A DNA stretch of 64,000 bases, from NCBI GenBank assembly GCA_004322365.1, contig SCTS01000005.1, positions 67,697-131,696 on the forward strand. The letters are read 5' to 3'. Source of the stretch: Patescibacteria group bacterium (GTDB lineage: Bacteria > Patescibacteriota > Minisyncoccia > Phycocordibacterales > Phycocordibacteraceae). Positions 12,049-60,112 of the stretch are shown piece by piece. The notes under the pieces are model-generated. The model was not told the DNA's origin, searched no databases, and saw nothing but the letters and a program-made list of their open reading frames with translations. Every line of letters starts with the position of its first letter. Positions within the stretch are counted from its first letter, which is position 1. The position numbers and the translations under genes are program-made.

Positions 12049-12097
12049 CCCCTGTATAGTATAATCTAACGGTCGTTAGATTATACTATACAGGGGG
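12049..12097. repeat. perfect ~48-bp hairpin/palindrome cccCTGTATAGTataatcTAACGgtCGTTAgattatACTATACAGggg (copy 1 of 2) in the pyk promoter region
   Basis: The two arms are exact reverse complements (23 bp each). A second copy with compensatory arm changes is at 30067-30106. Confidence 0.85.
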
Positions 12098-19877: not shown

Positions 19878-19919
19878 TGATTATAAAATCCCCTCTATAT
19901 AGAGGGGATTTTATAATCA
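19878..19919. terminator. 42-nt perfect palindrome TGATTATAAAATCCCCTCTAtaTAGAGGGGATTTTATAATCA immediately 3' of the tRNA (likely tRNA terminator)
   Basis: Exact 20-bp inverted repeat, seen directly. Confidence 0.6.
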
Positions 19920-19921
19920 AG

Positions 19922-20214
19922 CTCCGCGGGTAGGACTCGAACCTACAACCAACTCCTTACACGTGATCCCCTATTACGAAGGGCGTGGACTATATCATCA
20001 TCCGATCTGGATGCGAGGCGCTTCGACCTTTCGGTCTACTCCCTTTCGGGATAGTCTCTACACCTTCTCCAACAAATCGTCAGAGCTTGGCTCGGGATTG
20101 CCCATCCTTTTTATAGGATTAGGGTTTCCCCGAATTCACCTCGTTTTTCAATCCCGATTCCTCGGGAAGGCTGCCTTTGGACAGGGAGCTGCTCTACCAT
20201 TGAGCTACCGCGGA
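19922..20214 (-). tRNA. tRNA gene interrupted by a ~220-nt intervening sequence in the anticodon loop (putative group I intron). Anticodon probably GUU (Asn), alternatively UGU (Thr), depending on the splice junction.
   Basis: On the minus strand: 5' TCCGCGG-TA-GCTC-AATGGTA-GAGC-A-GCTCC-CTGT | ~221 nt | TAA-GGAGT-TGGTT-GTAGG-TTCGAGT-CCTAC-CCGCGGA-G 3'. The exon halves form a canonical cloverleaf. The intervening sequence contains P7-like AGACUA ... UAGUC elements and ends in G before the 3' exon. Confidence 0.6.
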
Positions 20215-20296
20215 ATGTACACAATCAACAGAGTTGATTGGTGATTATTATATACCCTGACTTGATGATTCAGCAAACTTAACACTAGGTGTTATA

Positions 20297-29955: not shown

Positions 29956-30066
29956 CTCCATGCTACCGCATGAACGCACCAATGGGTAGACATCTGGAAA
30001 TAATTAAATAAAAAAACATATACATATGAGTAGGATGTTTTGCCTCCTCATACGCACATAACATTC

Positions 30067-30106
30067 TGTATAGTTTAATTTAACGGTCGTTAACTTAAAC
30101 TATACA
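30067..30106. repeat. hairpin/palindrome TGTATAGTttaattTAACGgtCGTTAacttaaACTATACA (copy 2 of 2) in the divergent promoter region between the methyltransferase and ABC transporter genes
   Basis: Shares the outer CTGTATAGT/ACTATACA arms and the central TAACGGTCGTTA with the copy at 12049-12097. Inner arm positions differ but remain complementary, with one mismatch. Confidence 0.8.
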
Positions 30107-37153: not shown

Positions 37154-37978
37154 TCTTCAAATAGAGCAGTGGAAAAAGAATTTCTTCTTCGAGAAAAATA
37201 TAACGGCGTAAAAAATTCAGAGTATGAGGCTGATGTGATGCGAATAGAGAATGGTGAACCACTCGCATATGTGATTGGCTTTGTTCCATTTTTAGATTGC
37301 AAAATATTCTTGGACTCACACCCACTGATTCCCCGACCTGAAACAGAATTTTGGGTAGAGAAAGTTATTGAAAAGCTGAAAACTGAAAGCTGGCACCCCC
37401 CAAGGGGACTGCAATTTGTATCCAATCGCTTTGCTCTTGGACAAATCGGGAGCCTTAAAGCTATCCAAAAACCACTTCGGGTTTTGGATTTGTTTGCAGG
37501 TTCGGGATGTGTTGGTGTGGCATTGCTCAAGCATATCCCTGATGCTCAAGTTGATTTCGGAGAAATCGATACAAATCACTTTTCTACAATTACAAAAAAC
37601 ATACGCGAGAATGGCATCGAAGAAATACGAACCGCTGTGATACGCACCGATGTTTGGGATGGCATCACTAATTTATATGACATTGTGTGCGCAAATCCCC
37701 CCTACCTGTCAGAGAGTCGCCTTAACTTAATTGGACCCTCAGTGCTCGCCTATGAGCCTAAAAAAGCACTGTTTGCTGACGAGGATGGCTTTGCTCTCAT
37801 ACGAAGATTAATTCTCAAAGCGGGGGCGCACCTAAACCCTAAGGGACTTATGTATATCGAGCATGAACCTGAACATGCAGAAATGATTCAAAAATGCGCC
37901 AAAGAACATGGCTTCAGTGCGGAAAATAAACAAGATCAATATGGAGTGTTGCGGTATAGCGTTTTGAGTAGGTTTTAG
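37145..37978 (+). CDS. prmC: release factor glutamine N5-methyltransferase (HemK/PrmC)
   Basis: DLFAGSGCVGVAL (motif I) and NPPY (VCANPPYL). Confidence 0.8.
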   Translation: MDHSSNRAVEKEFLLREKYNGVKNSEYEADVMRIENGEPLAYVIGFVPFLDCKIFLDSHPLIPRPETEFWVEKVIEKLKTESWHPPRGLQFVSNRFALGQIGSLKAIQKPLRVLDLFAGSGCVGVALLKHIPDAQVDFGEIDTNHFSTITKNIRENGIEEIRTAVIRTDVWDGITNLYDIVCANPPYLSESRLNLIGPSVLAYEPKKALFADEDGFALIRRLILKAGAHLNPKGLMYIEHEPEHAEMIQKCAKEHGFSAENKQDQYGVLRYSVLSRF

Positions 37979-38088
37979 GTGCTAGGGACTAGGTGCTAGA
38001 TGACGCTTCATTAGGTCCGTAGAAATCAACGAGGTGCTAGCTTTTTGAACTGAAACCTAACACCCAGAAGCTAGTACCTAGCACCTCA
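37972..38088. repeat. intergenic palindromic repeat element, CTAGGTGCTAG family (copy A)
   Basis: ggtgctagggactaggtgctag ... gaggtgctagcttttt ... agctagtacctagcacctc; the arms are mutually complementary. Confidence 0.8.
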
Positions 38089-38107
38089 TTCATGGCATAA
38101 TAGTTTT

Positions 38108-38902: not shown

Positions 38903-40114
38903 ATGACTATCGACCCTTACAAAGGCGTTCGGGATTTTTATCCCGAAGACGAACGGATACAGAAACACATTTTTGGTGCCATGCGTCGTGCGTCAGAGTC
39001 TTTTGGCTATGAAGAGTACAATGCCTCTATTTTGGAGTCGACAGAACTCTATATGGCAAAAACAAGCGAAGAAATAGTAAATGAACAAACATATACATTC
39101 ACTGACCGTGGCGACCGTTCCGTTACTCTGCGCCCTGAAATGACACCAACAGTTGCGCGTATGGTAGCGAGTCGTAAACGAGAACTTGGCTTCCCTCTTC
39201 GTTGGTACTCAATTCAAAACTTCTTCCGCTACGAGCGACCACAGCGAGGACGCTTGCGTGAGTTTTGGCAGTTGAACGCTGATCTTTTTGGTGTCACCGG
39301 AGTAGAGGCCGATGTGGAAATAATCGCCCTTGCCTATCGCGTCATGATGGAACTCGGCGCATCCGACACTGACTTCGTAATAAAAATTGGGAGCAGATCA
39401 GCACTGAACGCCGAACTTGCTCGTCGTGATATCCCCGCAATAAACCACAAAAAAATCGCTGCGCTCATGGACAGGAAAGGAAAAATTCCTAACGAGGAAT
39501 ATGATGATGAAATGAGCGCTCTTGCCGGTGGTGCATTTGAGATTCATGAGAGTCCCGACATTGTAGAAACTCGGAGGCTTCTGGCGACACTCGGTATCAC
39601 TAACACTGAATTCAATCCTGAAATTGTGCGCGGCTTTCAGTACTACACGGGAATCGTTTTTGAAGTGTTCGATACAAATCCAGAAAACAAACGCTCTATG
39701 TTTGGCGGTGGCAGATATGACAACCTTGTAGGTCAATACGGCTCCGAAGAAGTACCTGCTGTTGGTTTTGCTATGGGGGATGTCATTGCAAGAGATTTCT
39801 TAGAAACGCACAACCTCATGCCCAACATCACTTCCGCAACACATCTCTATCTTGCGCCAGCAAGCGACAATGAAGTCGAGGGTGTTGCAAATATTGCAAA
39901 CACTCTCCGAAAGAACGGAGTAAATGTTGCCACTGGCATGAAGCACAACAAAATAGGCGACCACATAAAAACAGCACTGAAGCTTGCTATACCTTACTTT
40001 GCAGTCTACGGAGAAAAAGAAAAGGAATCTGACACGCTCACCATCAAAACCCTCGCTACTAGTTCCGAACAAACCCTCCCTCTTTCCGATGTTGCTTCGT
40101 ATTTAAAAAGCTAG
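38903..40114 (+). CDS. hisS: histidine--tRNA ligase
   Basis: Class II aaRS motifs: GVRDFYPED, FRYERPQRGRLREFWQ, GGGRYDNL. Confidence 0.9.
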   Translation: MTIDPYKGVRDFYPEDERIQKHIFGAMRRASESFGYEEYNASILESTELYMAKTSEEIVNEQTYTFTDRGDRSVTLRPEMTPTVARMVASRKRELGFPLRWYSIQNFFRYERPQRGRLREFWQLNADLFGVTGVEADVEIIALAYRVMMELGASDTDFVIKIGSRSALNAELARRDIPAINHKKIAALMDRKGKIPNEEYDDEMSALAGGAFEIHESPDIVETRRLLATLGITNTEFNPEIVRGFQYYTGIVFEVFDTNPENKRSMFGGGRYDNLVGQYGSEEVPAVGFAMGDVIARDFLETHNLMPNITSATHLYLAPASDNEVEGVANIANTLRKNGVNVATGMKHNKIGDHIKTALKLAIPYFAVYGEKEKESDTLTIKTLATSSEQTLPLSDVASYLKS

Positions 40115-40140
40115 AAGCTAGAACCTAGCACCTAGCACCC
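40108..40140. repeat. CTAGGTGCTAG-family repeat, half element (copy B)
   Basis: aaaagctagaagctagaacctagcacctagcacc overlapping the hisS stop. Confidence 0.7.
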
Positions 40141-40156
40141 GTAACCTTCTTTTCTT

Positions 40157-43779: not shown

Positions 43780-44625
43780 ATGAGACGTGTCTTAATTTCA
43801 GCAAGTGCAGTGATACTCATTGCACTATTTTCAAGTCCTCTGTACGCCGTGGCTGAAACCGCTTCTGCGGGGATTCCTGCAGGGAACATCTGGCTTTCAA
43901 AAAATGCCGTAATCGAAAAAGAATCGGTGCGTATATTTTTACCTGTATACAACGCGAGTGCAACAAAAATTTCTGGTGACGCAATCTTTTCTGTCGATAC
44001 GATACAAGTCGGTACTGCACACTTTGAACTTGATGCTGGAAACTCCACAATAGTATCGAGCACGTGGACTACAACAAAAGGAGCTCACTCGATAACAGCA
44101 CGACTTGAAGGTACAGTTGATGCAAAAACAGGTACTGAAATTTCTGTATCAGCAAACACACAAACACTTGCCGTTGATATAGCAGAACGTCCACCAGCAC
44201 CTGCATTAGTTCAGGCACTTGGGATTGTTGCGAGTGTTGCACAAAATACAGTATCTGTAGCACTTCCTGTTGTTGCATCGGTTGCGAATACCGTATTTAA
44301 AGAAACAGAGCAACTAAGAGAAAGTGCGGTGGTCGCGCTTGAAAATTCACTAAACGGAACTACCGCTTCATCTGACGCAACTCCATCACAAGGATTAGTC
44401 TTAGGAGCTGAAACATTCCGTGCACCTGCAAATAATGATGGACTAATGGCCACAGCAATTACTGCACCTACCTCAGAGGGCGTTATGCGGATACTCCAAA
44501 CAATTTTATTATTCCTTGTGAGCTATCAATGGATCTTCTATCCCCTTCTATTACTCATTCTTCTCGGACTATTATTTTTGATTGGAAAAGGAATGTCCCG
44601 CAAGCAGACACCGAAAAGGGGCTAG
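43780..44625 (+). CDS. secreted hypothetical protein with C-terminal TM anchor
   Basis: Start trimmed to MRRVLISASAVILIALF (signal); C-terminal ILLFLVSYQWIFYPLLLLILLGLLFLIG. Confidence 0.4.
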   Translation: MRRVLISASAVILIALFSSPLYAVAETASAGIPAGNIWLSKNAVIEKESVRIFLPVYNASATKISGDAIFSVDTIQVGTAHFELDAGNSTIVSSTWTTTKGAHSITARLEGTVDAKTGTEISVSANTQTLAVDIAERPPAPALVQALGIVASVAQNTVSVALPVVASVANTVFKETEQLRESAVVALENSLNGTTASSDATPSQGLVLGAETFRAPANNDGLMATAITAPTSEGVMRILQTILLFLVSYQWIFYPLLLLILLGLLFLIGKGMSRKQTPKRG

Positions 44626-44629
44626 TTTT

Positions 44630-44696
44630 TAGGTGCTAGGTGCTAGCTTGAATTTCTGAAAGCTAAAACCTGAAAGCTGACAGCTGAAACCTTCCT
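44630..44696. repeat. CTAGGTGCTAG-family repeat (copy C) between convergent genes
   Basis: ggctagtttttaggtgctaggtgctagcttgaatttctgaaagctaaaacctgaaagctgacagctgaaacc. Confidence 0.75.
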
Positions 44697-44697
44697 T

Positions 44698-45522
44698 TTA
44701 AAGAGGTGTCAAAAACATCAATATCGTAACGGCAAGAAGTACCCGGTACACCGCAAATACATACAGCGGGTGGGTTCGAAGGAATTTTAAAAGTATATAG
44801 ATGGCAAGAAGACCGCTCACAAAAGCAACAACACTTCCAAGAATGAGTGGGACGCCAATAGTGCCAAGAGCACCTGTTCCGGCAAGCTCTAAAAACTTCT
44901 TAGATCCTGCACCAAGAATAATGGGAACCGAAAGAAGAAAACCGAAGCGTGCAGATGCTTCACGCGATAGTCCGAGGAACAGGCCACCTGAAATGGTCAT
45001 GCCCGAGCGACTCATGCCAGGGATTAAGGCAAGGGCCTGAAAAAGACCAATGAGTATTGCCTTCCAAAAACCTACCGCCTCCATACCTGTCTGTGTTCTG
45101 TAACGTTTTGAAATATACTCAGCCAAAAGAAAAACTGCTGAACCTGCAATGAGCGCGTACGCAACAAGGTGTGTATTTCGAAACACAGTGTCCATCGTGC
45201 TTTCCAACAGAATGCCTAAAATTACAGCTGGAACAGTACCTACAATAAGTGCAAGCAGCAGTCGCCCATCTTCCACTGCGACAGGTTTTCCCATCACCTT
45301 CTTAAGTGCTGTGTGTGCCAAAGTGAGTAAATCTTTAGAAAAATACACAACAACCGCAAGGATGGTTCCTAACTGTAAAACCGAGTCAACAGCAAGGCTA
45401 TTCGTCCCCGTGGCACCAAGGAGCTCACGAGCGATTATAAGATGCCCTGACGAAGAGATGGGAAGAAACTCAGTGATACCTTCAACGAGGCCTAAAATAC
45501 TAAAAATCACCCAGTCGTACAT
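44698..45522 (-). CDS. uppP: undecaprenyl-diphosphate phosphatase
   Basis: ILGLVEGITEFLPISSSGHL is the BacA/UppP signature. Confidence 0.85.
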   Translation of the reverse strand: MYDWVIFSILGLVEGITEFLPISSSGHLIIARELLGATGTNSLAVDSVLQLGTILAVVVYFSKDLLTLAHTALKKVMGKPVAVEDGRLLLALIVGTVPAVILGILLESTMDTVFRNTHLVAYALIAGSAVFLLAEYISKRYRTQTGMEAVGFWKAILIGLFQALALIPGMSRSGMTISGGLFLGLSREASARFGFLLSVPIILGAGSKKFLELAGTGALGTIGVPLILGSVVAFVSGLLAIYILLKFLRTHPLYVFAVYRVLLAVTILMFLTPL

Positions 45523-46272: not shown

Positions 46273-46350
46273 AGGTGCTAGGGACTAGGTTCTAGGTGTT
46301 AGCTTTAACTTCCGAAAGCTAGAACCTAGCACCTATAACCTAAAACCTGT
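46273..46350. repeat. CTAGGTGCTAG-family palindromic repeat (copy D) between convergent genes
   Basis: ggtgctagggactaggttctaggtgttagctttaacttccgaaagctagaacctagcacctataacctaaaacc; aggtgctaggttctagcttt is the reverse complement of aaagctagaacctagcacct. Confidence 0.85.
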
Positions 46351-46353
46351 CTT

Positions 46354-47178
46354 TCAGAGCCCAAGGCGGTAAATGTCGAAGGAGTTTTCACCTTCAAACA
46401 TGTCGGAAGGGTTTGGGAGATACATACGCTCCCGTAGTATTTCTGCGCTCGCATCGTTAATGAGGCGATGAAATACTTCAAAGTCTTCTGCACATTCTTT
46501 AAAGTCCAATACATACCGACGCATTTGAGATGAACCATCGACGTTCTTTCTTTTTTTACACTCATAGACAATGAAGCGTCGAACTGGCTTGCCAAAAAGA
46601 GCACCAACGGTGTAGTAATTAAACATTGCCTGCAACACAAACAAAGGTTTCGAAGCACCGCTTTTACTGAACGAATCAACAAATTTATGATCAACAATAT
46701 CAACCGCCCCTTTTTCAACTCGAGATTCCACCACCAAGTCAGAAATCGCTTTCACTGGGAGCGGTAGTCCTGGAACTTCTGCCATACCCATGACTTCAAT
46801 TCCTAAAACCTTATGTTTGGGAGGTCTCTCTAAGTAAAAAGATACTGCCTGCAGGTAGTCCTTCTCCATACTCTGTCGCTTCTCTTTCTGCGCTCGCTTG
46901 CTTTTAGCTTTCCCAAATTGCACTTCAAAGTCTGCAATGTTTCGTAGATACTCGAGCCCTAATGCAACAGACGCTTCTTTTGAAAGCCCACTATAAAAAT
47001 GCTGAAGCGCTACATGCCCAGAGCGTCCAATGATGCCGGCCGGTGTAGACGGTGTGTCTCTTACATTTTCAACATACCGCTTGTACCACGCCAAAGGATT
47101 TCGCAAAAACGAAATGAGAGACGAGTGGCTCCAGTGTTTAATTGGATATTTTGATTTCTTACTCGAAGCCTTTTTCAC
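46354..47178 (-). CDS. PD-(D/E)XK nuclease superfamily protein (RecB/Cas4-like exonuclease fold)
   Basis: N-terminal HWSHSSLISFLRNPLAWYKRYV (RecB-family N-motif) and a core ISDLVVE ... VDIVDHK matching D...(D/E)xK. Confidence 0.55.
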   Translation of the reverse strand: MKKASSKKSKYPIKHWSHSSLISFLRNPLAWYKRYVENVRDTPSTPAGIIGRSGHVALQHFYSGLSKEASVALGLEYLRNIADFEVQFGKAKSKRAQKEKRQSMEKDYLQAVSFYLERPPKHKVLGIEVMGMAEVPGLPLPVKAISDLVVESRVEKGAVDIVDHKFVDSFSKSGASKPLFVLQAMFNYYTVGALFGKPVRRFIVYECKKRKNVDGSSQMRRYVLDFKECAEDFEVFHRLINDASAEILRERMYLPNPSDMFEGENSFDIYRLGL

Positions 47179-51242: not shown

Positions 51243-51322
51243 ACTAGGTGTTAGGTGCTAGCTTCTAGGTGCTAGCTTTCAGATTTGAAAAGCTAGAACC
51301 TAGTCCCTAAAACCTATAAGCT
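51243..51322. repeat. CTAGGTGCTAG-family palindromic repeat (copy F) between the HAD-like gene and rpoC
   Basis: gactaggtgttaggtgctagcttctaggtgctagctttcagatttgaaaagctagaacctagtccctaaaacctataagc. Confidence 0.85.
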
Positions 51323-51326
51323 CTGT

Positions 51327-54300
51327 TTACGCTATATCTGAGATCCTCTCCCGTGCTTCGTCTCGTTCCATTTCAAGTTCCATTTCTTTTGCACGCTTCT
51401 CCTGGAATGCAGCAACACGTGCATGCTTCTTACTACCTACGAATCCTGTACCTGCAGGAATGAGTCGTCCAACAATGACGTTCTCTTTAAGTCCTGCGAG
51501 AAGGTCAACGGTACCCTTAAGTGATGCAGTAATGAGAGTTCGTGTTGTGTGCTGGAAGGATGCTGCTGAAAGGAAGCTTTTACGATTCAACGAGATTTCA
51601 GTAATACCCAATACTAAGCGATCGTATTTAAGAGGTTCCTTTCCTGCTTCTTCAAGTTCACGGTTGGTGCTGTGTGCTGTACGCATTTCGAGAGCCTCAC
51701 CCTTAACAAACGAGCTGTCTCCTGGATCAGTAACTCGAACTCGTGAGAACATTTGGCGGATGATGACTTCCATGTGCTTGTGAGAAACTGGAGCACCCTG
51801 AAGATCGTAAATCTTAGCCACCTCGTCAATCATGTAGTCTTGGAGTCTCTGCGCACCTGCGAGCTTAAAGAGCTCATCAAGGTCCATAGAACCGTCAGTA
51901 AGCGCATCACCCTTTCCAACATGCATACCTTCTCTCACTACAGAAACGCGTCTTGCAGGAACTTCATATTCAATCTTGTCTTTTTTGTCTGATGTTTGAT
52001 CAGGAAGAAGTACGATTGTTTTGACACCCATGTCATCACGAACTTCTATGATGTCTCCTGCAACTTCAGCGAGAATAGCTGCAGCCTTTGGCGGTCGTTT
52101 ATCGAACAACTCTTCAATACGTGGGAGTCCGTTCGTAATGTCGCCACCGATAGTTGCAACACCTCCAGTGTGGAAAGTACGCATAGTAAGCTGTGTACCT
52201 GGTTCACCGATAGCTTGCGCTGCAATTGTTCCAACGGCTTCGCCGATATCAATGATTTCACGAGTTGCGAGGTCGGAACCGTAACACTTCTGACAGATAC
52301 CTTTCTCTGAAGCACATGACATTGGAGAACGCACAGTTGCTTCTTCAACACCGAGAGCTGCAATTTCTATTGCGTCTTCTTTCAAAATAAAGGCACCTCG
52401 TTTCCATACTTTGTCTCCTACTGCAATTTCTTTTGCAAGCACTCGTCCAACAATAAGTTTTCCGAGGTCAGCCTCCATACCAGTAGAGCGCATACGGTTG
52501 ATAACAAGACCGAGCTTGGTACCACAGTCAGCTTCAGAAACCATGATGTCTTGGGCAACATCGAACAGTCTTCGAGTAAGGTATCCGGCGTGCGCGGTTT
52601 TGAGTGCGGTGTCAGTCAAACCTTTTCGAGAACCGTGTGTAGTTGTGAAGTATTCAGTTGGTGTAAGACCTTCTTTCATTGAAGAGACCACAGGGAATTC
52701 AATGACACCTCCTGCAGTGTTGGTCACGAGTCCTTTCATACCAGCCATCTGAGAGAGCTGTCTGACGGAGCCTCGGGCACCTGACACCACCATGGTGTAT
52801 ACAGACGAAAGAGTGTTGAGCGATGGAAGAATTTCTTTTTCAATGTCTCCAATCGCCTTCTGCCATATTTCAATGGTCAAACGCAATTTTTCTTCTGCAG
52901 TAAGCAAACCATTTTCATACTGCACAGTCATTTCTTGAACTTCCTTGCGAGCTGCATCAACAATTACCTTCTTTCCTTTTGGAACAGCGAGGTCATCGAA
53001 GCTAAACGAAACACCTGACTTCGTTGCAAATTGGAAACCAAAGTGTTTAATTTTGTCGAGAATAGCCGGCGTCTTTTCAAGACCGTAGATAAAGATAATG
53101 TCATCAACCAACTTACTGAGCTGAGTCTTCTTTATTTCAGAATTAATGAAGAGATAATCTTTTGGAAGAATTGAATTGAAGAGAAGTCGGCCTACCGTTG
53201 TTTCAAAACGCTCTCCTTTAAATGCGGCGTACTTAGGGTTGTCTTTTGTTGGCTCAACAGAAATTTTTGCATGTATACCAACATCACCGAAGTCGTACGC
53301 AAGAATAGCAGCGTTTGGACTCTGGAAGTACTTGCCATCGCCCTTTTCATTTGGAATATCTCTGGTCATCCAGTAAATACCAAGTGCAATGTCGAGTGGC
53401 TTCTCAAAGATAACCGGCTGTCCTGATCCCGGCTTCAATACGTTCTTAGCTGCAGACATGATGGTCTCAGCTTCCATTTGTGCTTCAGCTGAAAGTGGCA
53501 CGTGGACGGCCATTTGGTCACCGTCGAAGTCAGCATTGAATGCAGGACAAACTAATGGATGAAGTTGGATAGCGTTACCTTCAATGAGTCGTGGGCGGAA
53601 TGCCTGAATACCTTGGCGGTGAAGTGTAGGAGCACGGTTCAAAAGAACATGCTTGCCTTGAATCACCTCTTCAAGAATTGCCCACACTTCAGGAATACCT
53701 TCTTCAATGAGTCTACCTGCACCACGAATGTTGTGCGCAAGTTCACGTTCCAAGAGTTTTGCAATAATGAATGGACGGAACAATTCCAATGCCATCTTCT
53801 TTGGAAGACCACACTCGTCGAGTTTCAATTCTGGTCCGACAACAATAACTGAACGGCCTGAGTAGTCGACACGCTTACCAAGAAGGTTGAAGCGGAAGTA
53901 TCCCTGTTTTGATTTCAAATAGTCAGCGAGAGATTTCAATGGACGACGCTGTGACTGACTTGCAGCTGAAAATGCTGCACCACCACGGCGAATTGAGTTG
54001 TCGAGAAGTGCGTCAACAGCTTCCTGAAGAATTCTTTTTTCGTTACGAAGAATAACTTCTGGTGCGAAGATATCGCGAAGTTTTACAAGGCGGTTATTGC
54101 GGTTGATGACACGGCGATACAAGTCGTTCACATCAGATGTCGCATGACGACCTGATTCAAGAGCAACCATTGGGCGAAGTGCTGGAGGTGTAACTGGAAT
54201 GCGCGTAAGGAACATCCACTCAGGGCGAACGCCTGCTTTAATCATTGAACGAATGAGTGAGAGTCTCTTGCCCAATTTTTCTCGTTCAGCTGCACCTGCT

Positions 54301-58430: not shown

Positions 58431-59282
58431 TCAAGCCAGAGCCTCTGGAGAAATGGCTTTTGGCTCCACGACCTCAAATGTCAGAGGGTCGTAATAGATA
58501 CGGTCGTAGATTTCAAAGGGTTTGCCAACGAGACCACCCTTCCCTTCTGGCGTTCCATCGAGCTTCCATTTGTCATAGTACGCAAGATAGTTGCCTCCAC
58601 CATCTTTCCCGAGCGTCAGTTTGTATCCACCCATAATGCCGTTTTGCCTATCCTCGTTATACATTCCGCCAACATTCTGAGCACGCATCTCATCATCATA
58701 TGAAGCTCGTTCAACAGCCCGCTGTATGGTTACACCCTCAGGTTTCTTAAACCACCTCCGATCTTCTTCAGTGATTCCACTTTTGAAACCTTTGATTTGG
58801 TAATAGTAAATATCGTCCGTACTTTTTTCTGGTTTAAAATCAGAAATACCAAAAGTATCGTGAAGCTGCGGGAGACCAAGATACATACGCCATGCGTCCA
58901 TATTTTTTAGATTCGCTGTGGCGGTAATTCCTGCATCCTTCCCAAGGAAATGCGTTGCTGCATCCTTCAGACGAGAAGCCAATTCTCCAAGCGACTCTGG
59001 GTAATTCAAATCAGGATTAATTCCTTGAGCCAACGCTTCGCTAATTTCAGGCTTATACGCAGTGCGTTGAAAGTCTGTGATGCCATTCATATGTAGCTGT
59101 TCCGCCGCATTAAAACGCTCAGCAAATGTACCGAGTGGTTGCTTCACTGATTCTCTAGAAGAGCCAGCGAGACCAGAAACCAAAACTGCGGCACCGAGTT
59201 TAAGTGTTCTCCTCTTTTTTGGATCCCTAGGTTCCTCATCCGATGATGACTTCTCTCGTGGAGCACCGCCGAACAATTTCAT
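58431..59282 (-). CDS. secreted hypothetical protein (Tat/Sec-like N-terminus)
   Basis: KKRRTLKLGAAVLVSGLAGS N-terminal signal; no domain recognised. A hairpin GGCTCTGGagcggtcaaGCCAGAGCC overlaps its stop. Confidence 0.4.
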   Translation of the reverse strand: MKLFGGAPREKSSSDEEPRDPKKRRTLKLGAAVLVSGLAGSSRESVKQPLGTFAERFNAAEQLHMNGITDFQRTAYKPEISEALAQGINPDLNYPESLGELASRLKDAATHFLGKDAGITATANLKNMDAWRMYLGLPQLHDTFGISDFKPEKSTDDIYYYQIKGFKSGITEEDRRWFKKPEGVTIQRAVERASYDDEMRAQNVGGMYNEDRQNGIMGGYKLTLGKDGGGNYLAYYDKWKLDGTPEGKGGLVGKPFEIYDRIYYDPLTFEVVEPKAISPEALA

Positions 59283-59309: not shown

Positions 59310-59336
59310 AATGTGGGACATCGTATGTCCCACATT
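59310..59336. repeat. 27-bp perfect palindrome AATGTGGGACATcgtATGTCCCACATT (intergenic copy)
   Basis: 12-bp arms are exact reverse complements. Same core as 59742-59766. Confidence 0.9.
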
Positions 59337-59428
59337 TACATGGTGTTCCTAGTCGTCCCTCCTAAAACCTGCCTCGTGGACGAGACATCGGAAATTCCGG
59401 CTTCGCGGGATCGAAAAAAAACAGAAAA

Positions 59429-60112
59429 CTATTTCTGTTTTTTCCATTCTTCAATTTTTTTATGATCTCCAGATAACAAAACTTTTGGGACACGGAGCTT
59501 CTTACCTTTCCACACCAGCACCTCTGGACGCGTGTACACCTCAGAACTTGAGATACGCTCCTCTTCTATTGATTCAAAGGTACCTAAGACTCCTGGGATT
59601 TGCCGTGCCACGGCATCAATAACCACCATTGCTGGCAACTCCCCTCCTGTAAGCGTATAAGAACCAATGGAAATCTTCTTGGCTTTCAATATTTTCTGAA
59701 CCCGAGCATCAATACCTTCATAGTGCCCGCATATCAACACTATGTGGGACATCGTATGTCCCACATGTGAGTGCTTCGCAAGAGTGCGTGCATCAGCGTT
59801 CGTGAATTGTTTTCCTGATGCATCAAAAAAATACACAATGCCTTTTTTCATTCCTAAAGCTTTCGTGACTGCTTTTAAAAATGGCTCCGCCTGAAGCACC
59901 ATACCAGGGCCTCCGCCGTACGGACGACCATCTACTTTTATGTACGGCTTTTCGGTTTTTTTAGTAACTTTTACAAAATCGCGAGGATTATAAAACTTAA
60001 CCGACACATGCTTTTCACGAATTGCTCGTCCAACAATTGACGAAGCGAGGTACGACTCAAACGCCTCCGGGAAAAGCGTAACTACATGAAAAGTTAGTGC
60101 GGTTTTTTTCAT
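59429..60112 (-). CDS. trmD: tRNA (guanine37-N1)-methyltransferase
   Basis: VLICGHYEGIDARV and SIGSYTLTGGELPAMVVIDAVARQIPGVLG are TrmD SPOUT-knot motifs. Confidence 0.9.
   Translation of the reverse strand: MKKTALTFHVVTLFPEAFESYLASSIVGRAIREKHVSVKFYNPRDFVKVTKKTEKPYIKVDGRPYGGGPGMVLQAEPFLKAVTKALGMKKGIVYFFDASGKQFTNADARTLAKHSHVGHTMSHIVLICGHYEGIDARVQKILKAKKISIGSYTLTGGELPAMVVIDAVARQIPGVLGTFESIEEERISSSEVYTRPEVLVWKGKKLRVPKVLLSGDHKKIEEWKKQK
59742..59766. repeat. 25-bp palindrome ATGTGGGACATcgtATGTCCCACAT embedded in-frame inside trmD
   Basis: 11-bp arms perfect. It translates as ...HVGHTMSHI..., an insertion relative to the usual TrmD region just upstream of the LICGHYEG motif. Confidence 0.85.

What the first reader, a model, noticed from the sequence alone, without database searches (positions are those of the whole stretch)
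59310..59766. 25-27-bp perfect palindrome present intergenically and in-frame inside the essential trmD gene
AATGTGGGACATcgtATGTCCCACATT at 59310-59336 lies between trmD and the upstream secreted-protein gene. ATGTGGGACATcgtATGTCCCACAT recurs at 59742-59766 inside the trmD reading frame. There it encodes HVGHTMSHI, which looks like a short insertion just N-terminal to the conserved LICGHYEGID motif. A near-identical palindrome twice within 460 bp, one copy tolerated in-frame in a SPOUT methyltransferase, is unusual. It could be a protein-binding operator pair allowing DNA looping or autoregulation of the trmD operon. It could be a miniature palindromic insertion element. It could be a target site for a sequence-specific nuclease. 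The asymmetric CGT centre is identical in both copies.
Basis: seen in the sequence. Interest (0 to 1): 0.65.

Follow-up and report, generated by a model that had tools for sequence, protein, structure and literature searches.

The report
In-frame REP-like palindrome in trmD
The 25-base palindrome seen twice around trmD belongs to a family of short hairpin repeats in Patescibacteria that travels with its own hairpin-specific (RAYT-type) transposase and, unusually, mostly sits in frame inside essential genes.

Summary
ATGTGGGACAT-CGT-ATGTCCCACAT occurs exactly twice in the window. One copy lies between trmD and the next gene. The other lies in frame inside trmD, where it is read as HVGHTMSH in a loop that most TrmD proteins lack.

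It is not a trmD-specific operator. The same palindrome occurs in at least 13 Patescibacteria/Paceibacterota genomes. At least 24 of 43 copies lie inside Pfam-verified housekeeping genes, and 19 of those 24 are read as VGHxMSH.

In two of these genomes the palindrome brackets, and also sits inside, a gene for a Y1 HUH transposase. That protein's predicted fold best matches the E. coli REP-associated tyrosine transposase (RAYT) bound to its hairpin. Among 80 metagenomic relatives of this gene, many are bracketed by a perfect palindrome specific to their own lineage.

Orthologous trmD genes carry different but perfect palindromes at the same site: 7 of 11 stem pairs show compensatory changes and none shows a G-U wobble. 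Close relatives have an empty site.

Best reading: a REP/RAYT-type selfish hairpin element, tolerated in a surface loop of TrmD. Intragenic REPs have been reported before, so this is a new variant of a known kind. No RAYT gene lies in the window, and mobilisation is inferred, not shown.

The parts
59742..59766 (.). Intragenic copy of the repeat: the perfect palindrome ATGTGGGACAT-CGT-ATGTCCCACAT (11-3-11). It lies in frame inside trmD and encodes H-VGHTMSH-I on the minus strand.
   Evidence: There is a gap at this point in PDB TrmD alignments. The segment is absent from most orthologues and from the syntenic loci L038 and L039. The single-stranded DNA hairpin has a free energy of -13 kcal/mol, z = -5.8. 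In the AF2 model it lies at the end of a helix and the following loop, before strand 123-127.
59310..59336 (.). Intergenic copy of the same repeat (12-3-12, AATGTGGGACAT-CGT-ATGTCCCACATT). It lies between the trmD stop codon and the ribosome-binding site and start of the next minus-strand gene.
   Evidence: The position is conserved in relatives. L035 has a 5'-truncated copy, GGACAT-CCG-ATGTCCCACATT. L040 has a compensated variant, CAATGTAGGACAT-CGT-ATGTCCTACATTG. L038 and L039 have none. The hairpin free energy is -11.9 kcal/mol, z = -6.5.
59429..60112 (-). trmD (tRNA m1G37 methyltransferase), the host gene of the in-frame copy.
   Evidence: Pfam PF01746, E 1.1e-38. PDB TrmD hits reach E 1e-40 over residues 8-225, with conserved motifs on both sides of the insert. 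The same protein, at 100% identity, is on record as Patescibacteria TrmD (P0001).
58431..59282 (-). Downstream 283-aa ORF of unknown function. Its start lies 27 nt past the intergenic copy. It is given here as context only.
   Evidence: no Pfam hit. A syntenic 286-aa gene is present in L035, L038 and L124.

Best explanation
The two palindromes are copies of a REP-like (repetitive palindromic) element family of Patescibacteria/Paceibacterota. Its partner enzyme is a RAYT-like Y1 HUH tyrosine transposase.

When the DNA is single-stranded, for example on the lagging-strand template, each 25-mer folds into an 11-bp hairpin with a 3-nt loop. Hairpins of this kind are what Y1 transposases bind and cut next to. 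The enzyme gene is itself bracketed by the same hairpins.

The arms of this palindrome contain no stop codon in any frame. A copy that lands in, or replaces, a surface loop with a net length change that is a multiple of three is therefore simply translated. In trmD it adds H-VGHTMSH between a helix and the strand that leads into the catalytic knot, and the enzyme tolerates it.

In these tiny, gene-dense genomes such intragenic positions are where most copies persist. The arms stay perfectly complementary while their sequence drifts and tracks the lineage's transposase, so the constraint acts on the DNA hairpin and not on the peptide.

Shown: the repeat family, its in-frame position in many verified genes, filled versus empty trmD sites, compensatory evolution, and linkage to the Y1 transposase gene across many lineages.

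Inferred: that the transposase makes or maintains the copies, that this happens on single-stranded DNA, and that the trmD copy is translated and harmless.
For: (1) Family. An exact-arm scan of one genome per species found 34 loci in about 13 MAGs, all Patescibacteria-type, with up to 9 copies per fragmentary MAG.

(2) Intragenic position. The copies lie inside Pfam-verified TatD, MurD and Mur ligases, formyltransferase, an RlmI-like methyltransferase, DnaX, HolB-like protein, transketolase, KsgA, HhH-GPD, TsaD, CarA, aminotransferase V and PheT. 19 of 24 are read as VGHxMSH (P = 5.5e-6).

(3) Transposase link. In L021 and L018 the palindrome sits at the 5' end, just after the stop, and in frame inside a 216-255-aa gene. 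That gene has HUH (NHYHLL) and Tyr (YIHLNP) motifs. It matches Pfam Y1_Tnp at 35.3 bits, above the 23-bit cut-off, and its best NCBIfam hit is 'REP-associated tyrosine transposase'. An AF2 model (pLDDT 89.6) best matches 4er8_A, the E. coli RAYT bound to a REP hairpin (E 3.2e-5, 179 columns), ahead of the ISDra2 and IS608 TnpA structures.

(4) Generality. Of 80 metagenomic loci of this transposase family, 55 have a perfect palindrome with arms of at least 9 nt within 300 nt. 23 have the same core in at least two of the upstream, internal and downstream positions. Each lineage has its own sequence.

(5) The trmD site. Nine orthologous palindromes differ in sequence, but 98 of 99 stem cells are Watson-Crick paired, 7 of 11 pairs changed on both sides, and none changed on one side only. 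No shuffle out of 500 reached this.

(6) Gain and loss. Syntenic relatives L038 and L039 (TrmD 89% and 84% identical) lack both copies. The NJ tree shows an empty sub-lineage inside the REP-bearing clade and a second, distant REP-bearing lineage.

(7) Loop triplet. It is genome-specific: CCG/CGG nine times, ACT/AGT seven times, and GAT/ATC as inverted, REPIN-like doublets.
Against: No RAYT homologue lies in the 64-kb window, and the rest of the source genome could not be read, so the partner enzyme is unconfirmed for this organism.

The transposase scores below NCBIfam's curated RAYT cut-off (37.9 against 80 bits). A sequence profile of the family finds no PDB entry.

The repeat unit is 25 nt, which is not a multiple of three. 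Net length changes are +18 or +21 nt in trmD and about 0 in the transposase gene's own internal copy, so a simple fixed-length insertion does not describe the events.

Classical REPs are extragenic and carry an unpaired GTAG head. Here most copies are intragenic and the GTGG lies within the stem.

No transposition or cleavage has been observed. Translation through the element is inferred from the reading frame only.
Confidence: 0.8

Rival explanations
1. Pair of operator sites. A dimeric regulator binds the two duplex palindromes 431 bp apart and loops the DNA to control the trmD operon or the downstream gene.
For: There are two identical inverted-repeat sites in one operon, one of them just upstream of the next gene's ribosome-binding site.
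Against: The same sequence lies inside about 20 unrelated housekeeping genes in other genomes. At the trmD site the arm sequence differs between close relatives while symmetry is kept. Three different variants coexist within 200 bp in L017. L038 and L039 run the same operon with neither site.
Confidence: 0.03
2. The hairpin acts primarily in RNA, as an mRNA stabiliser, a processing site, or a translation or transcription pause element inside and after trmD. Its spread and conservation reflect that function.
For: Classical REPs downstream of genes can stabilise mRNA (stated in PMC3733652). The intergenic copy lies between two co-directional genes. The 11-bp stem is stable.
Against: Across 99 stem cells there is not a single G-U intermediate. 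Every change is a full Watson-Crick replacement, as expected if both DNA strands must pair. The loop occurs in both orientations relative to the host genes. Copies lie at arbitrary positions in genes on either strand. No Rfam family matches.
Confidence: 0.07
3. The encoded peptide is the selected unit: a His-rich VGHxMSH loop, for example a metal-binding loop, recruited into many proteins.
For: 19 of 24 intragenic copies are read in the VGHxMSH frame, a strong bias (P = 5.5e-6).
Against: At the same trmD site relatives encode VGPRRSH, VGPTRSN, VGFRKPN, VGFRKPY and YERPTRSF. These are unrelated peptides, but each is encoded by a perfect palindrome. Copies also occur in the other two frames and between genes. 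The segment is low-confidence loop in both AF2 models.
Confidence: 0.03
4. Self-maintaining palindromes without an enzyme. Template switching during replication (quasi-palindrome correction) keeps the arms perfect and creates new copies. The transposase linkage is a secondary association.
For: Perfect symmetry with no intermediates except one G.A mismatch (L037) fits arm-to-arm correction. No RAYT gene lies in the window.
Against: This does not explain identical 25-mers in many genes and many genomes. It does not explain genome-specific loop triplets. It does not explain why the transposase genes of many lineages are each bracketed by their own palindrome in a fixed upstream, internal and downstream layout.
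Confidence: 0.07

Closest known systems
REP / REPIN elements with RAYT (TnpA_REP) transposases of Proteobacteria (E. coli RAYT-REP complex, PDB 4ER8; Pseudomonas REPINs)
   Same: Both are short palindromic repeats dispersed in the genome. In both, a Y1 HUH transposase gene is bracketed by its own repeat. The repeat sequence differs between transposase lineages. Inverted doublets form longer hairpins (L006, L023, L028, L032). A GTGG/GTAG tetranucleotide is present. The predicted fold of the enzyme is closest to 4er8.
   Different: Here the palindromes are perfect 11-3-11 units, not imperfect GC-rich stems with an unpaired GTAG head. Most copies are inside genes and in frame. The transposase gene carries a copy of its own repeat in frame 15-24 codons before the HUH motif. 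The host is a Patescibacteria lineage. The protein is below NCBIfam's RAYT cut-off.
Intragenic REPs described by Di Nocera et al. 2013 (PMC3733652): GTAG/CGTC REPs inside genes of Opitutus terrae, Rickettsia conorii (RPE-4, RPE-6) and others
   Same: REP-type hairpins and their dimers are found in frame inside known proteins, many of them DNA replication or repair and RNA-related genes, and are judged neutral decorations.
   Different: In that study they are a minority of a mainly extragenic population. Here at least 24 of 43 copies are in verified genes. No Patescibacteria were covered, and no internal copy in the transposase gene was reported in the passages read.
Rickettsia palindromic elements (RPE-1; Ogata et al. 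2000; my own knowledge, and cited in PMC3733652)
   Same: Both are selfish palindromic DNA inserted in frame into essential protein-coding genes of a reduced genome, tolerated on protein surfaces.
   Different: RPE-1 is roughly 100-150 bp, has no known transposase and is restricted to Rickettsia. The element here is 25 nt and is linked to a Y1 transposase.
IS200/IS605 insertion sequences and their transposase-less derivatives (PATEs)
   Same: The enzyme superfamily is the same (Pfam Y1_Tnp). In both, hairpins next to the gene are the recognition elements. ISDra2 and IS608 TnpA are the next-best structural matches.
   Different: IS200/IS605 ends are two different imperfect hairpins, and the whole IS is the multicopy unit. 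Here the same perfect hairpin lies on both sides, and it is the solo 25-mer that is multicopy.

Membership tests
REP/RAYT system | Short (about 20-40 bp) palindromic repeat able to form a stem-loop | tested here: met
   25-27-nt perfect palindromes. DNA hairpin free energy -11.9 to -14.4 kcal/mol, z from -5.8 to -8.6.
REP/RAYT system | Many copies dispersed within one genome | tested here: inconclusive
   Only 2 copies in the 64-kb window. There are 9 exact-arm copies in MAG DATMZK, 7 in JAGWIS and 6 or more in JBAYJU. The source genome as a whole could not be read.
REP/RAYT system | A Y1 HUH tyrosine transposase gene flanked by the same repeat | tested here: met
   L021 and L018 have the TGTGGGACAT palindrome at the 5' end, inside the gene and just after its stop. 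Among 80 metagenomic loci, 23 have the same core in two or more of the upstream, internal and downstream positions. This is not met inside the window itself, which has no homologue.
REP/RAYT system | The protein belongs to the RAYT branch rather than generic IS200 TnpA | tested here: inconclusive
   Pfam Y1_Tnp passes (35.3 bits against a cut-off of 23). NCBIfam REP_Tyr_transpos is the best hit but falls below its cut-off (37.9 against 80). The Foldseek top hit is 4er8_A, the RAYT-REP complex, aligned over 179 columns against about 130 for the IS608 and ISDra2 structures. The PDB sequence profile search found nothing.
REP/RAYT system | Conserved GTAG/GTGG tetranucleotide at the 5' foot of the hairpin | tested here: inconclusive
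   GTGG (with variants GTAG and GTTG) is present at positions 3-6 of the arm, but it is base-paired within the palindrome. Other lineages of the same transposase family have unrelated arm sequences.
REP/RAYT system | Extragenic location of the repeats | tested here: not met
   At least 24 of 43 copies lie inside Pfam-verified ORFs, in frame.
REP/RAYT system | The transposase binds and cleaves the repeat as single-stranded DNA; the gene is single-copy and vertically inherited | not testable with these tools
   This needs biochemistry and complete genomes.
Rickettsia palindromic elements (RPE) | In-frame insertion into functional protein-coding genes | tested here: met
   TrmD motifs are conserved on both sides and the reading frame is kept. 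The same holds for about 20 other genes.
Rickettsia palindromic elements (RPE) | Element of roughly 100-150 bp, sequence family of Rickettsia, no transposase | tested here: not met
   The unit is 25 nt, the hosts are Patescibacteria, and it is linked to a Y1 transposase.
Transcription-factor operator | Sites confined to promoter or regulatory regions of a regulon, with the half-site sequence conserved | tested here: not met
   The sites lie inside coding regions of unrelated genes. The half-site sequence varies between orthologous sites while symmetry is kept.

The most novel reading that the evidence does not exclude
This may be a distinct REP/RAYT lineage adapted to life inside genes. The transposase gene keeps a 'master' copy of its hairpin in frame within its own coding sequence.

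Copies at orthologous sites in host genes would be re-written to the genome's current hairpin and loop by enzyme-driven conversion or replacement, not by classical insertion. That would explain three observations: a net length change of about zero in the RAYT gene, identical 25-mers at the same site in proteins only 36% identical, and genome-specific loops.

If so, the system continuously recodes surface loops of essential proteins in CPR bacteria.
Probability: 0.3. Interest if true: 0.7.

Novelty: new variant of a known kind. Interest (0 to 1): 0.6.

Why it matters
REP/RAYT systems are treated as extragenic residents of mostly proteobacterial genomes, and the way they copy themselves is still unsettled.

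Here the same logic appears in ultra-small, gene-dense Patescibacteria. In these genomes the hairpins mostly live in frame inside essential genes, including trmD, dnaX, the mur ligases, tsaD and ksgA, and inside the transposase gene itself.

This gives a natural system with three useful properties:
- Selection at the DNA-hairpin level can be separated from selection on the peptide.
- Filled, empty and compensated states of one site can be compared across relatives.
- Insertion can be tested against conversion.

Practically, these 7-19-residue inserts will confuse orthologue alignments, domain calls and structure models for CPR proteins. They could also serve as strain markers.

Tried and rejected
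- Exact look-up of the window's TrmD, as a window reference and as P0001, found no contig on record. The source genome and its possible RAYT gene could therefore not be inspected.
- tblastn with the two RAYT proteins found no homologue in the window or in other palindrome loci.
- A PDB sequence search with the RAYT profile gave no hit. The fold search was needed instead.
- A viral-contig scan for the palindrome gave 0 matches, so there is no sign of phage carriage.
- Literature searches covered the sequence itself, palindromes and hairpins in Patescibacteria or Parcubacteria, and RAYT/REPIN together with CPR. None found a description of this family.
- Rfam found no family at the site.
- A search for decayed copies in the window turned up only unrelated near-palindromes and terminators.
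- I looked for a target-site motif in the flanks. Only the AT dinucleotides that complete the 25-mer are conserved, with weak extra complementarity at the third position out (20 of 43).
- I considered whether the element is stop-free in all six frames. The arms are, but AGT and GAT loops create a stop in one frame, so the claim was dropped.
- The operator, peptide-module and RNA-only readings were considered and rejected or down-weighted (see the rival explanations).

Full report
**1. The observation**

The 25-mer ATGTGGGACATCGTATGTCCCACAT is present exactly at window 59311-59335 and 59742-59766. No match appeared in 100 shuffles, and the 11-nt half-site occurs nowhere else in the 64 kb. The first copy extends to a 27-nt palindrome at 59310-59336.

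trmD is the minus-strand ORF 59429..60112 (Pfam tRNA_m1G_MT, E 1.1e-38; PDB TrmD hits to E 1e-40). So the 'intergenic' copy is downstream of trmD and 27 nt upstream of the next co-directional ORF. That ORF has no Pfam hit.

On the coding strand the second copy reads H-V-G-H-T-M-S-H-I, directly before VLICGHYEGID. The alignment to solved TrmDs has a 7-residue gap exactly there. Among 120 Paceibacterota orthologues the common state is LAKKxKDIVLICGHYEG, without the segment. In an AlphaFold model the segment forms the end of a helix and the loop before strand 123-127.

**2. It is a dispersed repeat, not a trmD feature**

I scanned one genome per species with TGTGGGACATNNNATGTCCCACA. This returned 34 loci from about 13 MAGs, all labelled Patescibacteria, Paceibacterota or Parcubacteria apart from one labelled Saccharibacteria. 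Some fragmentary MAGs hold up to nine copies.

Most copies lie in long ORFs. Pfam confirms these as real housekeeping genes:
- TatD, in two genomes at different sites
- MurD and Mur ligases
- formyltransferase, and def-fmt
- an RlmI-like SAM methyltransferase
- DnaX domain III and a HolB-like protein
- transketolase
- KsgA, an HhH-GPD glycosylase, TsaD and a GT1 glycosyltransferase
- CarA, a beta-lactamase-fold protein, a class-V aminotransferase and the PheT B5 domain

At least 24 of 43 copies are therefore intragenic and in frame. Because the palindrome has a 3-nt centre, each frame gives the same peptide on either strand. 19 of the 24 are read as xVGHxMSHx (binomial P = 5.5e-6 against one third).

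The loop triplet is genome-specific up to orientation: CCG/CGG nine times in DATMZK, ACT/AGT seven times in JAGWIS, AGT/ACT four times in JAJYJQ, and GAT/ATC in JBAYJU. In JBAYJU nearly all copies are inverted doublets 28 nt apart that form 55-57-nt palindromes, the architecture of REPINs.

Flank statistics define the unit as AT + GTGGGACAT-N3-ATGTCCCAC + AT, 25 nt in all.

**3. The partner gene**

Loci L021 and L018 each have three copies within 800 bp, and these bracket one gene. One copy lies at its 5' end, one directly after its stop codon, and one in frame inside it.

The proteins (216-255 aa, 44% identical to each other) carry an HUH motif (NHYHLL / NHAHLL), a catalytic-Tyr motif (YIHLNP / YVHLNG) and YRWSS. 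The L021 protein matches Pfam Y1_Tnp above its cut-off (35.3 against 23 bits). Its best NCBIfam hit is 'REP-associated tyrosine transposase', though below the curated cut-off (37.9 against 80 bits).

The family has more than 4,700 relatives at E < 1e-5. The sources that name any of the best 120 call them Patescibacteria, Paceibacterota, Parcubacteria, Kaiserbacteria or simply 'bacterium'.

An AlphaFold model built on 40 family members has a mean pLDDT of 89.6, with the hairpin-encoded loop (about residues 41-55) at low confidence. Its best PDB match is 4er8_A, the E. coli RAYT bound to a REP hairpin (E 3.2e-5, 179 aligned columns), ahead of ISDra2 and IS608 TnpA. A sequence-only profile search of the PDB found nothing.

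**4. The linkage is general**

A metagenome scan with the family alignment gave 80 loci.
- In 55 of them a perfect palindrome with arms of at least 9 nt lies within 300 nt of the gene.
- In 23 the same core occurs in at least two of the upstream, internal and downstream positions.
- Each lineage has its own sequence, for example ATGATGGACTT-ACG-AAGTCCATCAT, ATGTCGGGACGT-CGT-ACGTCCCGACAT, ATGATGGGTTT-ACG-AAACCCATCAT and GATTGAAGT-TCG-ACTTCAATC.

In the 14 loci checked, the downstream copy, where one was found, usually starts within about 10 nt of the stop codon. The internal copy lies 15-24 codons before the HUH motif in all 14. This is the REP/RAYT relationship, in which each transposase is flanked by its own hairpin class, with the addition of an in-frame copy inside the transposase gene.

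**5. The trmD site across relatives**

DNA from syntenic loci shows a perfect palindrome at the same codon position in each relative, but with different arms:

| Locus (TrmD identity to the window) | Palindrome at the trmD site |
|---|---|
| window | ATGTGGGACAT-ACG-ATGTCCCACAT |
| L035 (94%) | ATGTGGGACCT-CGG-AGGTCCCACAT |
| L037 | ATGTGGGACCT-ACG-AGGTCCAACAT (one G.A mismatch) |
| L042 (76%) | ATGTTGGACCT-ACG-AGGTCCAACAT |
| L040 | ATGTTGGGTTT-CGT-AAACCCAACAT |
| L043 | ATGTAGGGTTT-CGT-AAACCCTACAT |
| L124 | TATGAACGACCT-ACG-AGGTCGTTCATA |
| L041, first | TATTCTGGGTTT-CGT-AAACCCAGAATA |
| L041, second | GGCAGACAT-ACG-ATGTCTGCC |

Pair counting over these nine palindromes gives 98 of 99 cells Watson-Crick paired and 7 of 11 pairs changed on both sides. 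None changed on one side only, so there are no G-U pairs. None of 500 shuffles reached this, and versions with one arm slid by 1-3 columns pair at only 30-47%.

The encoded peptides (VGHTMSH, VGPRRSH, VGPTRSN, VGFRKPN, YERPTRSF) are unrelated. The constraint is therefore on a DNA-level hairpin, not on the peptide. The absence of wobble pairs argues against a purely RNA-level constraint.

L038 and L039 (TrmD 89% and 84% identical) have an empty site (AAG AAA GAA AAA AAT ATT GTA) and also lack the intergenic copy. An NJ tree places this empty lineage inside the palindrome-bearing clade. It also shows a second, distant palindrome-bearing lineage, P0016/P0020. So there has been at least one loss or one second gain.

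The intergenic copy is also positionally conserved. It is 5'-truncated with a different loop in L035, and it is a compensated variant, CAATGTAGGACAT-CGT-ATGTCCTACATTG, in L040.

In the window the two copies are identical in arms and loop. In the 94% relative they differ from each other. This points to recent homogenisation or re-copying in the window's lineage, which is an inference.

**6. Mechanism**

The best-supported reading is a REP-like hairpin element maintained or mobilised by a RAYT-like Y1 HUH enzyme acting on single-stranded DNA. The 25-mer folds with a free energy of -12 to -14 kcal/mol (z from -5.8 to -8.6). Copies survive inside genes when the net change keeps the reading frame and the peptide falls in a tolerant loop.

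The steps in sections 1-5 are shown. Catalysis, single-strandedness and translation through the element are inferred.

Four points remain unexplained:
- The unit is 25 nt, yet net changes are +18 or +21 nt in trmD and about 0 in the transposase gene.
- The same orthologous site is occupied in genomes whose host proteins are only 36-70% identical, and each copy carries its own genome's loop. This means either strong target specificity or concerted evolution.
- The frame bias towards VGHxMSH has no established cause.
- The role of the internal copy in the transposase gene is unknown.

**7. Comparison with known systems and novelty**

REP/RAYT systems, and intragenic REPs in particular, are already described. 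Di Nocera et al. 2013 (PMC3733652) report REPs inside genes of several species, with the highest numbers in Opitutus terrae and Rickettsia conorii. RPEs are the classic in-frame palindromes. RAYT surveys (PMC5581495, PMC6006769) do not mention Patescibacteria in the passages searched, and no paper found describes this family.

The element fails one defining REP feature, extragenic location, and is ambiguous on the GTAG head and on the curated RAYT score. I therefore file it as a new variant of a known kind, not as a plain member.

'Nuclease target' is right in the sense of a HUH transposase. 'Operator pair' is not supported.

No RAYT gene is present in the window, and the rest of the source genome could not be read. 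This is the main gap.

Noticed in passing
window 19921-20214 (- strand); Rfam hit 19967-20245: A tRNA-Thr(UGU) gene is interrupted in the anticodon loop by a 221-nt group I intron (Rfam RF00028, 68 bits). ARAGORN finds the tRNA only when long introns are allowed. With default settings no tRNA is called anywhere in the window.
   Followed up: partly
window 19878-19919: A 42-nt perfect palindrome, TGATTATAAAATCCCCTCTATAT/ATATAGAGGGGATTTTATAATCA, ends 2 nt from the low-coordinate end of the intron-bearing tRNA gene (its 3' side on the minus strand).
   Followed up: no
window 12049-12096 and 30066-30106: A 48-nt perfect palindrome (23-nt arms, 2-nt spacer) has an 88%-identical second copy 18 kb away. 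This is another palindromic repeat family in the same genome.
   Followed up: no
window 37970-38099, 40114-40153, 44617-44698, 46273-46354, 51246-51328: Five blocks of degenerate CTAG-rich short repeats (AGGTGCTAGG... / AAAGCTAGAACCTAGCACCT...) lie between genes. Each block has an inverted-repeat character.
   Followed up: no
window 59340-59428 (- strand); L035, L124, L041:10765-11059: The stretch between the trmD stop and the intergenic palindrome (TAGTTTTCTG...GGCAGGTTTTAGGAGGGACGA) is conserved in relatives and is present three times in tandem in L041. It may be a small structured RNA or a terminator unit. It has no Rfam match.
   Followed up: partly
L006:4958, L007:6214 and 7453, L019:1697, L028:7189, L025:2907; RAYT loci L067, L085, L088, L090: A second palindrome class, ..GAGGT-TNA-ACCTC.. 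/ ..CGAGGTT-G/C-AACCTCG.., occurs inside ORFs of the same MAGs. The related CGAGGTT-type form brackets another lineage of the same transposase family, so it may be that lineage's repeat. If so, some genomes hold more than one repeat class.
   Followed up: partly
L051, L058, L060, L064, L067-L070, L075, L077, L078, L085, L092, L111, L018, L021: The transposase genes carry their own cognate palindrome in frame 15-24 codons before the HUH motif. The encoded loop is low-confidence in the AF2 model.
   Followed up: partly
L026:2786-4210: Peptide deformylase and formyltransferase domains lie in one 475-codon open frame, with the palindrome (DVGHAMSHT) exactly between them. The element may fuse, or bridge, def and fmt.
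   Followed up: no
L017:4033-4230: Three different variants of the palindrome (TGTAGGACCT, TGTTGGGTTT with 23-nt arms, and TGTGGGACAT) sit side by side within 200 bp of intergenic DNA upstream of secA in Parcubacteria bacterium Greene0714_7.
   Followed up: no
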